Part shown: positions 32 through 13,489 of the stretch, one piece after another
Position numbering within the stretch: position 1 is the first letter of the stretch
How the letters are laid out: each line of letters opens with the position of its first letter
DNA from: Escherichia coli
Lineage (GTDB): Bacteria; Pseudomonadota; Gammaproteobacteria; Enterobacterales; Enterobacteriaceae
NCBI RefSeq assembly: GCF_001677475.2
Contig: NZ_CP015229.1
DNA length: 64,000 nucleotides
Strand: one strand, 5' to 3'
Notes under the pieces: model-generated
Database searches by the model: none
What the model was told of the DNA's origin: nothing
What the model saw: the letters and a program-made list of their open reading frames with translations, nothing else
Position numbers and translations under genes: made by a program

Positions 32-94
32 GGTGATTACCTGTTCTTGATGCGTTGCCCGGTAAGCGGGTGCTTACCAGGCATTTTTAATGCG

Positions 95-1984
95 TTATGC
101 GCTACGACGCAGCATACCCTGTTTTTTCAGCCACACCAGCAGAATGGAGATGGCCGCAGGCGTGACGCCAGAAATACGCGAAGCCTGGCCGATAGAGGCC
201 GGTTTGTGATCGTTAAGTTTGGCGATCACTTCGTTAGAAAGACCGGATACCTGGCGGTAATCCAGCGTCGCTGGTAGCAGGGTGTTCTCGTTACGCAGCT
301 GCTTTTCGATCTCATCTTGCTGGCGCGCGATATAACCTTCGTATTTAACCTGAATCTCAACCTGTTCAGCCGCCTGATCGTCTGTCAACGCAGGGGCAAA
401 CGGCGTCAGCGTGGTTAATTTTTCATAAGTCATTTCCGGACGACGCAGCAGATCTTCACCACTGGCTTCACGGGAAAGCGGCGCAGTCAGGTGAGCATTC
501 ACTTCGGCTGCAGCTTCCGCCGACGGGGTTACCCAAGTCGATTTCAGACGCTGACGCTCACGCTCGATATTCTCAAGTTTCTCGTTAAAGCGCGCCCAAC
601 GTTCGTCATCCACCAGGCCCAGTTCACGACCGATTTCAGTCAAACGCAGATCAGCATTATCTTCGCGCAGCATCAGACGATATTCTGCGCGCGAGGTAAA
701 CATACGATACGGTTCTTTGGTTCCTAAAGTGCACAGGTCATCAACCAGTACGCCGAGATACGCCTGAGAACGCGTCGGAGCCCAACCATCTTTGTCAGCA
801 GACAGACGGGCAGCGTTAAGACCGGCCAGCAAACCTTGCGCAGCGGCTTCTTCGTAACCGGTAGTGCCGTTAATCTGACCAGCAAAGAACAGCCCCTGGA
901 TAAACTTGCTCTCCAGCGTCGGTTTCAGGTCGCGTGGATCGAAGAAGTCATACTCAATGGCATAACCTGGACGCACGATCTTCGCGTTTTCCATCCCCTG
1001 CATGGAGCGGACGATTTGCATCTGCACATCGAACGGCAGGCTGGTGGAGATACCGTTCGGATAAATTTCGTTTGAGGTCAGCCCTTCCGGTTCAAGGAAG
1101 ATCTGATGTTGATTTCTGTCGGCGAAGCGCATGACTTTGTCTTCGATCGACGGGCAGTAGCGTGGGCCGACACCTTCGATCACCCCTGCATACATTGGGC
1201 TACGATCGAGGTTACTGCGGATCACATCATGGGTTTTCTCGTTGGTATGGGTGATATAACACGGCACCTGCTGTGGATGCTGGGATGCATTACCCATAAA
1301 CGAGAATACCGGCATTGGGTTATCGCCATGCTGTTGCGCCAGCACGCTGAAGTCGATAGTACGCGCATCAATACGCGGCGGTGTCCCGGTTTTCAGACGA
1401 CCAACGCGCAGCGGCAGTTCACGCAAACGGCGAGAGAGCGGAATGGACGGCGGATCACCAGCACGACCACCGCTGTAGTTATCCAGACCGATATGAATTT
1501 TACCGTCGAGGAACGTCCCAACGGTGAGCACGACGGCTTTGGCACGGAACTTCAGTCCCATTTGGGTAACAGCACCGACCACGCGATCGTTTTCGACAAT
1601 AAGATCTTCAACCGCCTGCTGGAAGATCATCAGGTTCGGTTGGTTCTCCAGCGCCGTACGTACCGCCTGCCGGTAGAGCACACGATCCGCCTGAGCACGG
1701 GTAGCGCGAACCGCTGGTCCCTTGCTTGCGTTTAGTATCCTAAACTGGATACCCGCCTGATCGATCGCTTTCGCCATCAGACCGCCGAGTGCATCCACTT
1801 CTTTTACCAGATGTCCCTTCCCAATACCGCCGATCGCCGGGTTGCAGCTCATCTGCCCCAGCGTGTCGATATTGTGTGTCAAAAGCAGAGTCTGTTGACC
1901 CATACGCGCCGCGGCCATCGCGGCCTCGGTGCCTGCATGACCCCCGCCAATGATGATGACGTCAAAAGGATCCGGATAAAACAT
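95..1984 (-). CDS. mnmG: tRNA uridine 5-carboxymethylaminomethyl modification enzyme MnmG (GidA)
   Basis: 629-aa [28 protein letters not shown]-binding N-terminus; length and sequence match MnmG; sits next to oriC. Confidence 0.95.
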
Positions 1985-2094
1985 GGTGATTGCCTCGCAT
2001 AACGCGGTATGAAAATGGATTGAAGCCCGGGCCGTGGATTCTACTCAACTTTGTCGGCTTGAGAAAGACCTGGGATCCTGGGTATTAAAAAGAA

Positions 2095-2138
2095 GATCTA
2101 TTTATTTAGAGATCTGTTCTATTGTGATCTCTTATTAG
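2095..2138. repeat. oriC DNA-unwinding element: three tandem 13-mers (GATCTATTTATTT, GATCTGTTCTATT, GATCTCTTATTAG)
   Basis: Three GATCTnTTnTTTT-type 13-mers read directly at 2095-2107, 2111-2123, 2126-2138. Confidence 0.85.
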
Positions 2139-2151
2139 GATCGCACTGCCC

Positions 2152-2160
2152 TGTGGATAA
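2152..2160. promoter_or_regulatory. DnaA box R1 (TGTGGATAA)
   Basis: Exact 9-mer DnaA consensus (TTATCCACA on the opposite strand) immediately right of the 13-mers. Confidence 0.85.
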
Positions 2161-2331
2161 CAAGGATCCGGCTTTTAAGATCAACAACCTGGAAAGGATC
2201 ATTAACTGTGAATGATCGGTGATCCTGGACCGTATAAGCTGGGATCAGAATGAGGGGTTATACACAACTCAAAAACTGAACAACGGTTTTTCTTTGGATA
2301 ACTACCGGTTGATCCAAGCTTCCTGACAGAG

Positions 2332-2340
2332 TTATCCACA
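2332..2340. promoter_or_regulatory. DnaA box R4 (TTATCCACA)
   Basis: Exact DnaA consensus 9-mer at the right edge of oriC; further box-like 9-mers at about 2258-2266 and 2293-2301. Confidence 0.8.
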
Positions 2341-2362
2341 GTAGATCGCACGATCTGTATAC

Positions 2363-2806
2363 TTATTTGAGTAAATTAATCCACGATCCTAGCCATTCTT
2401 CTGCCGGATCTTCCGGAATGTCGTGATCAAGAATGTTGATCTTCAGTGTTTCGCCTGTCTGTTTTGCACCGGAATTTTTGAGTTCTGCCTCGAGTTTATC
2501 GATAGCCCCACAAAAGGTGTCATATTCACGACTACCAATACCGATTGCGCCAAAGCGGACCGCAGAAAGATCGGGCTTCTGTTCCTGCAATGCTTCATAG
2601 AAAGGAGAAAGGTTGTCCGGAATATCTCCGGCACCGTGGGTTGAGCTGATAACCAGCCAGATCCCAGAGGCAGATAAATCTTCCAACAGCGGACCGTGCA
2701 GCGTTTCGGTGGTAAAACCCGCCTCTTCCAGTTTTTCAGCCAGGTGTTCTGCTACATATTCGGCACCGCCGAGGGTGCTGCCGCTGATAAGAGTGATATC
2801 TGCCAT
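2363..2806 (-). CDS. mioC: FMN-binding flavodoxin-like protein MioC
   Basis: 147-aa ORF MADITLISGSTLGGAEYVAEHLAEKL; transcribed toward oriC as known for mioC. Confidence 0.93.
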   Translation of the reverse strand: MADITLISGSTLGGAEYVAEHLAEKLEEAGFTTETLHGPLLEDLSASGIWLVISSTHGAGDIPDNLSPFYEALQEQKPDLSAVRFGAIGIGSREYDTFCGAIDKLEAELKNSGAKQTGETLKINILDHDIPEDPAEEWLGSWINLLK

Positions 2807-2895
2807 AAACCGCCACCTTTATTAAGAGTGGCGTATTGTACGCTGTGAACGCGTTGGGATCTACCTGTGGAAAAGTATGGGATTAAAAAAGCCGA

Positions 2896-3354
2896 TCAGG
2901 GCTTGATGGTACGCATGATCGGGTTCTGCAGGACGATCAATGTCTCGGTGGACTGAATTTCATCAATTGTTTGGATCTTGTTGATAAGTACATGCTGGAG
3001 AGCATCGATCGAACGGCACATTACTTTGATAAAGATGCTGTAGTGGCCAGTTGTGTAATAGGCTTCAGTGACTTCATCGAGGCTTTCCAGCTTTGCCAGC
3101 GCGGAAGGATAGTCTTTGGCGCTCTTTAATATAATGCCGATAAAGCAGCCTACGTCATAACCGAGCTGCTTCGGGCTGACATCAATACGCGCCCCGGTAA
3201 TGATCCCCGCCTGCTTCATTTTCTCTACTCGAACGTGAATCGTCCCCGGACTGACGCCAAATTGTTTCGCCAGTTCAGCGTAAGCGGTGCGCGCATTGCC
3301 CATTAATGCTTCCAGGATGCCACGGTCCAGATTGTCGATCAGATAATTTTCCAT
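2896..3354 (-). CDS. asnC: Lrp/AsnC-family transcriptional regulator AsnC
   Basis: 152-aa ORF MENYLIDNLDRGILEALMGNARTAYAELAKQFGVSPGTIHVRVEKM; divergent from asnA. Confidence 0.93.
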   Translation of the reverse strand: MENYLIDNLDRGILEALMGNARTAYAELAKQFGVSPGTIHVRVEKMKQAGIITGARIDVSPKQLGYDVGCFIGIILKSAKDYPSALAKLESLDEVTEAYYTTGHYSIFIKVMCRSIDALQHVLINKIQTIDEIQSTETLIVLQNPIMRTIKP

Positions 3355-3505: not shown

Positions 3506-4498
3506 ATGAAAACCGCTTACATTGCCAAACAACGCCAAATTAGCTTCGTGAAATCTCACTTTTCTCGTCAACTGGAAGAACGTCTGGGGCTGATCGAAGT
3601 CCAGGCGCCGATTCTTAGCCGTGTGGGGGATGGCACGCAGGATAACTTGTCGGGCTGTGAAAAAGCGGTACAGGTAAAAGTGAAAGCTCTGCCTGATGCC
3701 CAGTTCGAAGTGGTTCATTCACTGGCGAAGTGGAAACGTCAGACCTTAGGGCAACACGACTTCAGCGCGGGCGAAGGGCTGTACACGCACATGAAAGCCC
3801 TTCGCCCCGATGAAGACCGTCTTTCTCCGTTGCACTCGGTCTATGTAGACCAGTGGGACTGGGAACGCGTAATGGGCGACGGCGAGCGTCAATTCTCGAC
3901 TCTGAAAAGCACGGTAGAGGCGATCTGGGCGGGAATTAAAGCAACCGAAGCTGCGGTTAGCGAAGAGTTTGGCCTGGCACCGTTCCTGCCGGATCAGATC
4001 CACTTCGTACACAGCCAGGAGTTACTGTCTCGTTATCCGGATCTCGATGCCAAAGGGCGTGAGCGGGCGATTGCGAAAGATCTAGGCGCGGTATTCCTCG
4101 TCGGGATTGGCGGCAAGTTGAGTGATGGTCATCGTCACGACGTGCGCGCACCGGATTATGATGACTGGAGCACCCCGTCAGAGCTGGGCCATGCGGGTCT
4201 GAACGGCGATATTCTGGTATGGAACCCGGTACTGGAAGATGCGTTTGAGCTTTCTTCCATGGGGATCCGCGTGGATGCCGACACGCTGAAGCATCAGCTG
4301 GCGCTGACCGGTGACGAAGATCGCCTGGAGCTGGAGTGGCATCAGGCGCTGCTGCGCGGTGAAATGCCGCAGACCATCGGCGGCGGTATCGGGCAGTCTC
4401 GTTTGACCATGCTGCTGCTGCAACTGCCACATATCGGCCAGGTTCAGTGTGGTGTATGGCCGGCAGCTGTTCGCGAGAGCGTCCCTTCTCTGCTGTAA
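3506..4498 (+). CDS. asnA: Aspartate-ammonia ligase (asparagine synthetase A)
   Basis: 330-aa [41 protein letters not shown]; ATG at 3506 preceded by AGGAG. Confidence 0.95.
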
Positions 4499-12628: not shown

Positions 12629-13489
12629 ATGAACATGAAAAAACTGGCTACCCTGGTTTCCGCTGTTGCGCTAAGCGCCACCGTCAGTGCGAATGCGATG
12701 GCAAAAGACACCATCGCGCTGGTGGTCTCCACGCTTAACAACCCGTTCTTTGTATCGCTGAAAGATGGCGCGCAGAAAGAGGCGGATGAACTTGGCTATA
12801 ACCTGGTGGTGCTGGACTCCCAGAACAACCCGGCGAAAGAGCTGGCGAACGTGCAGGACTTAACCGTTCGCGGCACCAAAATTCTGCTGATTAACCCGAC
12901 CGACTCCGACGCAGTGGGTAATGCTGTGAAGATGGCTAATCAGGCGAACATCCCGGTTATCACTCTTGACCGCCAGGCAACGAAAGGTGAAGTGGTGAGC
13001 CACATTGCATCTGATAACGTACTGGGCGGCAAAATCGCCGGTGATTACATCGCGAAGAAAGCGGGCGAAGGTGCCAAAGTTATCGAGCTGCAAGGCATTG
13101 CTGGTACATCCGCAGCCCGTGAACGTGGCGAAGGCTTCCAGCAGGCCGTTGCTGCTCACAAGTTTAATGTTCTTGCCAGCCAGCCAGCAGATTTTGATCG
13201 CACCAAAGGTTTGAACGTAATGCAGAACCTGTTGACCGCTCATCCGGATGTTCAGGCTGTATTTGCACAGAATGATGAAATGGCGCTGGGCGCGCTGCGC
13301 GCACTGCAAACTGCCGGTAAATCGGATGTGATGGTCGTCGGATTTGACGGTACACCGGATGGCGAAAAAGCGGTTAATGATGGCAAACTAGCAGCGACTA
13401 TCGCTCAGCTACCCGATCAGATTGGCGCGAAAGGCGAGAAAGTTCAGGCTAAGTATCCGGTTGATCTAAAACTGGTTGTTAAGCAGTAG
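12629..13489 (+). CDS. rbsB: Periplasmic ribose-binding protein RbsB (appears ~10 codons shorter than the K-12 protein; see findings)
   Basis: [25 protein letters not shown] signal peptide then [16 protein letters not shown]; ATG at 12629 with AGGA upstream; C-terminus reads [23 protein letters not shown]. Confidence 0.9.

What the first reader, a model, noticed from the sequence alone, without database searches (positions are those of the whole stretch)
2073..2349. Complete oriC with mioC reading into it
All hallmark elements are present: three 13-mers, DnaA boxes and GATC clustering, with mioC transcribed toward the origin. Two positions differ from the K-12 oriC as I loosely recall it (e.g. 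CGGTTTTTCTTTGG), but I cannot verify this from memory. The element is useful mainly as an anchor for the window.
Basis: partly seen in the sequence, partly recalled or inferred. Interest (0 to 1): 0.2.

Follow-up and report, generated by a model that had tools for sequence, protein, structure and literature searches.

The report
Ordinary E. coli replication origin oriC
This is the standard Escherichia coli chromosomal replication origin, 243 of 245 bases identical to the K-12 reference, with one common and one rare natural base change in a minor regulatory site, so it is ordinary and mainly useful as a map anchor.

Summary
The observation and the interpretation both hold. Window 2073-2349 is the canonical E. 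coli oriC, lying between mnmG/gidA (95-1984, -) and mioC (2363-2806, -). The minimal origin (2095-2339) is 243/245 identical to K-12 MG1655.

All hallmark elements sit in K-12 register. mioC ends 22 bp from R4 with no terminator-like motif, so its transcription runs into oriC.

G213 is a common allele at a triallelic site.

T217 is rare. It occurs in 4 of about 5,400 complete E. coli genomes, on other backgrounds. It also occurs in draft GCA_033753315.1, which is essentially identical to the window. A sister group 0.2% away has G, so T217 is recently derived here and arose at least twice in E. coli.

Both changes fall in the palindromic primary Fis 15-mer. T217 puts a disfavoured thymine at +4 and moves DnaA site C3 one step toward consensus. 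Published scrambling of this Fis site gives only slight asynchrony, so a large effect is unlikely. Already known; low interest.

The parts
2095..2339 (.). Minimal oriC (classical coordinates 23-267); 243/245 identical to K-12 MG1655
   Evidence: The RefSeq oriC feature of MG1655 (3925744..3925975) maps to window 2095-2326.
2080..2094 (+). AT-rich cluster left of the L 13-mer (GGGTATTAAAAAGAA), identical to K-12
   Evidence: The AT-rich 12-bp element flanking L-DUE is described in PMC10380432.
2095..2107 (+). 13-mer L, GATCTATTTATTT (DUE)
2111..2123 (+). 13-mer M, GATCTGTTCTATT (DUE)
2126..2138 (+). 13-mer R, GATCTCTTATTAG (DUE)
2152..2160 (-). DnaA box R1, TTATCCACA (8/8 to consensus)
2179..2191 (+). 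IHF-consensus-like 13-mer GATCAACAACCTG in the R1-R5M gap, identical to K-12
   Evidence: 7/9 to WATCAANNNNTTR. IHF site position between R1 and the left array: PMC8488378.
2207..2248 (-). Left low-affinity DnaA array, with sites 2 bp apart: R5M 2207-2215 TCATTCACA, tau2 2218-2226, I1 2229-2237 TTATACGGT, I2 2240-2248. All identical to K-12.
   Evidence: The 2-bp spacing rule is from PMC6070618. Site names were placed by that rule and by my recollection of the published map.
2258..2266 (+). DnaA box R2, TTATACACA
2267..2281 (.). Fis-like 15-mer centred on oriC 202 (ACTCAAAAACTGAAC, 5/6 to consensus), unchanged from K-12
   Evidence: Two closely spaced Fis sites between R2 and C3: PMC8488378.
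2278..2292 (.). Primary Fis 15-mer centred on oriC 213. K-12 has GAACAACAGTTGTTC, a perfect palindrome and the only 6/6 consensus match in oriC. The window has GAACAACGGTTTTTC (5/6). It carries both variant positions.
   Evidence: Fis consensus GnnYAnnnnnTRnnC: PMC10380432.
2285..2285 (+). Variant A>G relative to K-12 (oriC 213, centre of the Fis 15-mer). Common allele; the site is A, G or C among E. coli.
2289..2289 (+). Variant G>T relative to K-12 (oriC 217). It is Fis position +4 and position 3 of the 9-mer I assign to DnaA site C3. Rare allele.
2287..2328 (+). Right low-affinity DnaA array, with sites 2 bp apart: C3 2287-2295 (TTTTTCTTT here, TTGTTCTTT in K-12), C2 2298-2306, I3 2309-2317, C1 2320-2328. 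R3 (2293-2301, -) overlaps C3 and C2.
   Evidence: Spacing rule: PMC6070618. One Fis site partially overlapping C3: PMC8488378.
2332..2340 (+). DnaA box R4, TTATCCACA
2363..2806 (-). mioC (147 aa flavodoxin-like protein), read toward oriC. Its stop codon lies 22 bp from R4.
2835..2874 (-). mioC promoter region: -10 TACAAT (2835-2840), -35 TAGATC containing a GATC (2858-2863), and DnaA box TTTTCCACA (2866-2874). Identical to K-12.
   Evidence: Read. No differences from K-12 between 2733 and 2900. Hexamer assignment is my reading plus my recollection of the published promoter.
2038..2065 (-). Promoter-like site for mnmG/gidA (TTCTCA-16-TAGAAT), reading away from oriC
95..1984 (-). mnmG (gidA), the left flanking gene

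Best explanation
Window 2073-2349 is the functional chromosomal replication origin oriC of an E. coli strain.

Mechanism, taken from the K-12 literature and inferred here by near-identity:
- DnaA sits on the high-affinity boxes R1, R2 and R4.
- DnaA-ATP then fills the two arrays of low-affinity sites (R5M-tau2-I1-I2 and C1-I3-C2-C3).
- IHF bends the R1-R5M gap.
- Fis, bound between R2 and C3, delays filling of the right array during fast growth.
- The three AT-rich 13-mers then unwind for DnaB loading.
- The 11 GATC sites allow SeqA sequestration after firing.
- mioC transcription, repressed by DnaA at its promoter box, reads through the origin.

The origin differs from K-12 at two bases inside the palindromic primary Fis 15-mer. 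G213 is a common allele. T217 is a rare, recently derived natural allele. It places a thymine at Fis position +4 and makes the 9-mer I assign to C3 (by the 2-bp spacing rule) fit the DnaA-box consensus one position better. The most likely consequence is none, or a slight one.
For: Identity and context:
- 243/245 identity of the minimal oriC to K-12, and 376/378 over the whole mnmG-mioC intergenic region. The flanking genes are 97.9-98.3% identical.
- The 64 kb is collinear with K-12 from mnmG to hemY.
- All elements are in K-12 register.
- GATC is enriched about 13-fold and reaches the window-wide maximum here.
- No terminator-like motif lies between mioC and R4. PmioC and its DnaA box are unchanged.
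- RNA polymerase from mioC passes through the whole of oriC (PMC10380432).
- GC skew is positive along nearly the entire 62 kb to the right.

The variants are natural:
- Differences from the nearest complete genome fall 94 of 116 on third codon positions.
- Control 436-bp segments also carry 1-3 differences from their best database match.
- T217 is present in 4 complete genomes.
- The exact G213/T217 haplotype is in draft GCA_033753315.1, which has 1 difference in 13,444 bp.

Expected effect is small:
- Scrambling Fis site I (oriC131) gives only slight asynchrony (PMC3865182).
- oriC-Fis binding influences initiation not at all or only slightly (PMC10380432).
Against: - Nothing argues against the identity of the region as oriC.
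- Origin activity itself is inferred, not measured.
- The GC-skew switch cannot be seen, because only 2 kb lie to the left of oriC.
- Against strict neutrality of T217: this position is A or G in all 46 Enterobacterales and Vibrio representatives that share the R2-N26-R3 frame (29 A, 17 G, no T or C).
- A thymine at Fis +4 is reported to be strongly discriminated against (PMC4784862).
- Single-site changes at C3 can shift initiation timing in slow growth (PMC6070618).
Confidence: 0.96

Rival explanations
1. T217 is a functionally meaningful origin allele. It knocks down the primary Fis site, through a thymine clash with Asn84 at +4 plus an extra G/C pair in the centre from G213. At the same time it raises DnaA affinity at C3, or relaxes its ATP preference. 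Fis would then delay right-array filling less, and initiation timing or synchrony would change.
For: - The K-12 15-mer is the only 6/6 Fis-consensus match in oriC. The window has 5/6, no better than seven background matches.
- Thymine at +4 and G/C pairs in the centre are listed as negative determinants of Fis binding (PMC4784862).
- The DnaA-box consensus has A or T at position 3 (PMC6070618), so the 9-mer I assign to C3 goes from 4/8 to 5/8.
- C3 mutations shift the age at initiation in slow growth.
- The position is a purine in 46 of 46 other species.
- G>T arose at least twice in E. coli.
Against: - Complete scrambling of this Fis site gives only slight asynchrony.
- The second Fis-like site, centred on 202, is intact.
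- Position 213 in the site centre varies freely among E. coli, which argues for weak constraint on this site.
- No binding or growth data exist for this allele.
- The C3 coordinates rest on the spacing rule and my recollection, not on a sequence printed in a paper I could open.
Confidence: 0.15
2. The G>T at 2289 is a sequencing or assembly error, not a real allele.
For: - No exact match to the 33-mer spanning both variants in the 100,044 species representatives or in the metagenome contigs.
- No 100% match to the 66-mer in complete E. coli genomes.
- The change lengthens a T run, which is a context prone to some kinds of error.
Against: - The same G213/T217 haplotype is in NCBI draft GCA_033753315.1, with one further similar contig reported.
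- T217 occurs in four complete genomes from pangolin, pig and wild bird.
- It is a substitution, not a homopolymer length change.
- Caveat: the window may itself come from GCA_033753315.1, in which case that match is not independent.
Confidence: 0.03
3. The recurrence of G217T reflects a local mutational hot spot rather than selection. The perfect palindrome GAACAAC-N-GTTGTTC lies next to CAAAAAC (2270-2276). A template switch onto that neighbouring near-repeat could write GTTTTT.
For: - T217 lies on three 213 backgrounds (A, C, G), in lineages whose nearest sampled neighbours have G217.
- GTTTTT (2286-2291) is the exact complement of AAAAAC (2271-2276), as read.
- Quasi-palindrome templated mutation is an established class in E. 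coli (my own knowledge).
Against: - Templated mutation usually improves a palindrome, whereas this change breaks a perfect one.
- Only one of the two changes expected from that template is seen.
- Two or three events are few.
- No mutation-accumulation data were examined.
Confidence: 0.1

Closest known systems
E. coli K-12 MG1655 oriC (RefSeq NC_000913.3 feature 3925744..3925975; classical minimal oriC, 245 bp)
   Same: - Same locus between mnmG and mioC.
- 243/245 identical.
- Identical 13-mers, R boxes, IHF region, left array, C2, I3, C1 and all GATC sites.
- Same mioC promoter and DnaA box.

   Different: A213G and G217T, both in the primary Fis 15-mer. The second also lies in C3.
oriC alleles of E. 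coli M159-1, M171-1, PEC148 (A213/T217) and PEC1012 (C213/T217)
   Same: They carry the same rare T at oriC 217. The rest of oriC is identical or differs at one base.
   Different: - A different base at 213.
- About 2% divergent from the window in the flanking 4.8 kb.
- Their nearest sampled neighbour (K-12) has G217, so T217 probably arose independently.

oriC131, the engineered K-12 origin with the primary Fis site (site I, between R2 and R3) scrambled
   Same: It alters the same Fis site and is the best available proxy for loss of Fis binding there. The phenotype is slight asynchrony in glucose-casamino acids medium (PMC3865182).
   Different: oriC131 scrambles the whole site. The window changes only the centre base and +4, and is a natural allele.
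Enterobacterial / Vibrio oriC family (R2-N26-R3 frame)
   Same: The spacing between R2 and R3 and the motif GTTRTNCTTTGGATAAC are conserved in 46 species representatives, from Citrobacter to Vibrio.
   Different: All 46 have A or G where the window has T.

Membership tests
E. coli-type chromosomal origin oriC | Located in the mnmG(gidA)-mioC intergenic region, with asnC and asnA beyond | tested here: met
   The ORFs and the K-12 annotation agree, and the window is collinear with K-12 over 64 kb.
E. coli-type chromosomal origin oriC | AT-rich DUE with three 13-mers of the type GATCTnTTnTTTT | tested here: met
   L, M and R at 2095, 2111 and 2126 are identical to K-12, and the DUE is 73% A+T. 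Consensus quoted in PMC4451416.
E. coli-type chromosomal origin oriC | High-affinity DnaA boxes R1, R2 and R4 (TTATNCACA) in the conserved positions and orientations | tested here: met
   All three match perfectly at oriC 80-88(-), 186-194(+) and 260-268(+).
E. coli-type chromosomal origin oriC | Two arrays of four low-affinity DnaA sites, spaced 2 bp apart, in the R1-R2 and R2-R4 gaps | tested here: met
   All eight 9-mers are in register. Seven are identical to K-12, and C3 differs at position 3 (G>T), toward the consensus. Spacing rule from PMC6070618. Site names were assigned by that rule and by my recollection.
E. coli-type chromosomal origin oriC | Dense GATC cluster (11 in the minimal origin) for Dam/SeqA control | tested here: met
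   11 in 2095-2339 and 13 in 2073-2349, against about 1 expected; this is the maximum of the whole window.
E. coli-type chromosomal origin oriC | IHF site between R1 and R5M | tested here: met
   The sequence is identical to K-12 across the gap, with an IHF-like 13-mer at 2179-2191.
E. coli-type chromosomal origin oriC | Fis site between R2 and C3 | tested here: inconclusive
   The site centred on 202 is unchanged. The primary palindromic site centred on 213 drops from 6/6 to 5/6 of the consensus and gains a thymine at +4, which is reported as disfavoured. Binding was not measured.
E. coli-type chromosomal origin oriC | Near-identity to the experimentally defined minimal origin | tested here: met
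   243/245.
E. coli-type chromosomal origin oriC | GC-skew sign change at the origin | tested here: inconclusive
   Skew is positive over nearly the entire 62 kb to the right. Only 2 kb lie to the left, too little to see the switch.
E. coli-type chromosomal origin oriC | DnaA-dependent initiation activity (minichromosome replication, marker-frequency peak) | not testable with these tools
   This needs an experiment or read-depth data.
mioC read-through transcription into oriC | mioC is oriented toward oriC, has a DnaA-box-controlled promoter, and has no terminator before the origin | tested here: met
   mioC is on the - strand and ends 22 bp from R4. No terminator-like motif lies between them. 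PmioC and TTTTCCACA are identical to K-12. Read-through is described in PMC10380432.

The most novel reading that the evidence does not exclude
G217T is a naturally occurring, recurrent (at least two, probably three, independent origins) knock-down of the primary Fis site of oriC. The same change moves DnaA site C3 toward consensus. Strains carrying it would therefore initiate replication with altered timing or synchrony during fast growth. That would make it a natural counterpart of the engineered oriC131 and C3 mutants, and the recurrence would reflect selection rather than chance.
Probability: 0.08. Interest if true: 0.35.

Novelty: already known. Interest (0 to 1): 0.1.

Why it matters
The main value is as an anchor. 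It fixes the window as the origin-proximal 64 kb of an E. coli chromosome, equivalent to K-12 3.924-3.988 Mb with the + strand leading.

The only added value is a free natural experiment. The allele is rare and recently derived. It hits the one base of the Fis/C3 overlap that is a purine in every other enterobacterial and Vibrio origin sampled. A near-isogenic sister lineage carries G. The pair could be used to test how much the oriC Fis site and C3 sequence matter in the wild, a question on which published mutant data disagree mildly.

Tried and rejected
1. I first concluded that T217 was private. The 66-mer had no 100% hit in about 5,400 complete genomes, and the exact 33-mer had 0 hits in species representatives and in metagenome contigs. 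That was wrong. The queries also spanned the polymorphic position 213. A 35-mer starting after 213 found four complete genomes with T217. The same 35-mer with T at 2308 listed no full-length 100% match among its top rows.

2. I looked for the source lineage through the exact ViaA protein. That sequence is far too common (42,152 index blocks), and the eight loci returned were all about 1% or more divergent and carried G217. The rarer exact RavA protein worked.

3. Key primary papers were not held in the library: Rozgaja 2011, Filutowicz 1992 and Hengen 2003. The C3, C2 and tau2 coordinates therefore rest on the 2-bp spacing statement, on the statement that one Fis site partially overlaps C3, and on my recollection. 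Full-text searches for the 9-mer itself returned only unrelated primers or an unlabelled oligo.

4. A Shigella origin for the window was considered because the best 25-kb identity was only 99.0%. It is not supported. There are no IS elements and no frameshifted genes in 64 kb collinear with K-12, and NCBI holds near-identical draft assemblies. Their species labels were not shown by the tool.

5. The GC-skew switch could not be used, because the left arm is too short.

Full report
**What is at the coordinates**

The window around 2073-2349 reads as the textbook E. coli origin. ORF listing puts mnmG/gidA at 95-1984 (-), mioC at 2363-2806 (-), asnC at 2896-3354 (-) and asnA at 3506-4498 (+). This is the same order and orientation as in the K-12 MG1655 annotation, where the origin_of_replication feature lies between mnmG and mioC. 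A local BLAST shows the whole 64 kb is collinear with K-12 3923650-3987813 at about 98% identity, with no insertions. The window is therefore the origin-proximal part of an E. coli chromosome.

**Checking the observation**

Position 2073 is the first G of the BamHI site that defines oriC coordinate 1, so the classical minimal origin (23-267) is window 2095-2339.

- The three 13-mers are at 2095, 2111 and 2126.
- The DnaA boxes are R1 at 2152-2160 (-), R5M at 2207-2215 (-), R2 at 2258-2266 (+), R3 at 2293-2301 (-) and R4 at 2332-2340 (+).
Shuffles give a mean of 1.0 and a maximum of 5 in 2000. No other 277-bp window in the 64 kb reaches this count.
- The DUE is 73% A+T, in the top 0.5% of the window.
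- Three perfect TTATNCACA boxes in 277 bp compare with about 0.008 expected by chance (my arithmetic).

**Comparison with K-12**

Alignment of 1985-2420 with MG1655 shows four differences:

| Window position | Change | Location |
|---|---|---|
| 2285 | A>G | oriC 213 |
| 2289 | G>T | oriC 217 |
| 2380 | C>T | mioC, Val>Ile |
| 2390 | C>T | mioC, synonymous |

The minimal origin is 243/245 identical. The whole mnmG-mioC intergenic region is 376/378 identical, against 97.9-98.3% for the flanking genes. The origin is thus more conserved than its neighbours, as expected for a functional element.

**mioC reading into the origin**

- mioC is on the - strand and its stop codon is 22 bp from R4.
- The consensus scan finds no terminator-like hairpin between them. 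The only one in the region is the asnC terminator at 2904-2889.
- The mioC promoter region is identical to K-12, including the GATC-containing -35 and the DnaA box TTTTCCACA at 2866-2874.
- A promoter-like site at 2065-2038 (-) fits the gidA promoter, which reads away from the origin.

**Where the two variants fall**

Published text states three relevant facts:

- Each gap (R1-R2 and R2-R4) holds four low-affinity sites 2 bp apart (PMC6070618).
- Two closely spaced Fis sites lie between R2 and the C3-C1 array.
- One of these Fis sites partially overlaps C3 (PMC8488378).

Applying the spacing rule gives C1 at 2320-2328, I3 at 2309-2317, C2 at 2298-2306 and C3 at 2287-2295. The names are my assignment, because the primary paper was not available.

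Scanning for the Fis consensus GnnYAnnnnnTRnnC (quoted) gives a clear result. In K-12 the only 6/6 match in oriC is GAACAACAGTTGTTC at 2278-2292. It is a perfect palindrome centred on oriC 213 and overlaps C3 by 6 bp.

The window's two variants are the centre base (213) and the +4 base (217) of this 15-mer, which drops to 5/6. The structural literature says that Asn84 strongly discriminates against thymine at +4, and that G/C pairs in the centre inhibit the minor-groove compression Fis needs (PMC4784862). Both changes are therefore in the direction of weaker Fis binding. The same G>T makes C3 read TTTTTCTTT instead of TTGTTCTTT, which is one position closer to the TT(A/T)TNCACA consensus.

**How unusual the variants are**

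G213 is common. It is in O157:H7 and many other strains, and the site is A, G or C across sampled genomes.

For T217 my first searches suggested a private change:

- No 100% hit to the 66-mer among 5,403 matching genomes.
- No exact hits to the 33-mer spanning both variants in 100,044 species representatives or in the metagenome contigs.

That was an artefact of spanning position 213. A 35-mer starting at 2286 found four complete genomes with T217:

| Strain | Source | Haplotype |
|---|---|---|
| M159-1 | pangolin | A213/T217 |
| M171-1 | pangolin | A213/T217 |
| PEC148 | pig | A213/T217 |
| PEC1012 | wild bird | C213/T217 |

All four are about 2% divergent from the window in the flanks.

An exact-protein look-up with the window's RavA found two kinds of contig. 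NCBI draft GCA_033753315.1 is essentially identical to the window, with 1 difference in 13,444 bp and the same G213/T217 origin. A sister group (GCA_037967675.1 plus 21 similar contigs) is about 0.2% divergent and carries G217.

The distance matrix shows that each T217 group has a nearer sampled neighbour with G217. T217 is therefore real, rare (about 0.1% of complete genomes), recently derived in this lineage, and arose at least twice.

Across 46 Enterobacterales and Vibrio representatives that keep the R2-N26-R3 frame, this position is always a purine: 29 A and 17 G.

**Is the window's divergence natural?**

- The best complete genome is only 99.0% identical over 25 kb.
- Control 436-bp segments in mnmG and asnA also lack perfect matches, with best hits of 99.3% and 99.8%.
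- Differences from the nearest complete genome fall 94 of 116 on third codon positions.

This is an ordinary lineage that is under-represented among complete genomes. It is not an error-laden or altered sequence.

**Likely consequence**

- Scrambling the whole primary Fis site (oriC131) causes only slight asynchrony in glucose-casamino acids medium (PMC3865182).
- A review judges that oriC-Fis binding influences initiation not at all or only slightly.
- On the other hand, single-site changes at C3 that relax its DnaA-ATP preference advance initiation in slow growth (PMC6070618).

I therefore rate a measurable in vitro weakening of Fis binding as plausible and a clear physiological effect as unlikely. 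Nothing here was measured.

**Verdict**

This is a known element, 99.2% identical to the reference origin, and it serves as an anchor. The one mildly interesting detail is the rare, recurrent T217 allele in the Fis/C3 overlap, for which a near-isogenic G217 sister lineage exists. Novelty: already known. Interest: low.

Noticed in passing
window 13430-13437 (rbsB, 12629-13489 +): There is a 30-bp in-frame deletion between 8-bp direct repeats GAAAGGCG, relative to K-12 (3937086-3937115). It removes RbsB residues VETADKVLKG, leaving 286 aa instead of 296, and lies inside the K-12 rbsZ sRNA feature. The six best complete-genome hits all keep the 30 bp. Draft GCA_033753315.1 shares the 286-aa RbsB.
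   Followed up: partly
window 2285 (oriC 213): The centre base of the palindromic Fis 15-mer is triallelic (A, G, C) among E. coli. The few polymorphic oriC positions seen (212, 213, 217, 221, 236) cluster between R2 and I3.
   Followed up: partly
window 2286-2291 versus 2271-2276: The T217 change makes GTTTTT the exact complement of the upstream AAAAAC. This raises the untested idea that a template switch explains the recurrence of this transversion.
   Followed up: no
window 2095-2326 versus 2332-2340: The RefSeq origin_of_replication feature of MG1655 (3925744..3925975, 232 bp) maps to 2095-2326. It therefore stops short of DnaA box R4, which the classical 245-bp minimal origin includes.
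   Followed up: yes
window 27855: Two extra bases (AT) are present relative to K-12 at the ilvG pseudogene (3951536). K-12 annotates ilvG as a pseudogene. I did not check whether the reading frame is open here, but the position fits the known K-12 frameshift (my recollection).
   Followed up: no
window 33193-35708 (ilvY-ilvC): This block is only 95.4% identical to K-12, against about 98% elsewhere. Short K-12-specific intergenic stretches are missing at 33196, 35708-35723 and about 36060. This suggests a recombined or more variable segment.
   Followed up: no
window 9462 (kup): This is the single difference between the window and draft GCA_033753315.1 over 13,444 bp. The window's source is therefore that strain or a very close relative.
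   Followed up: no
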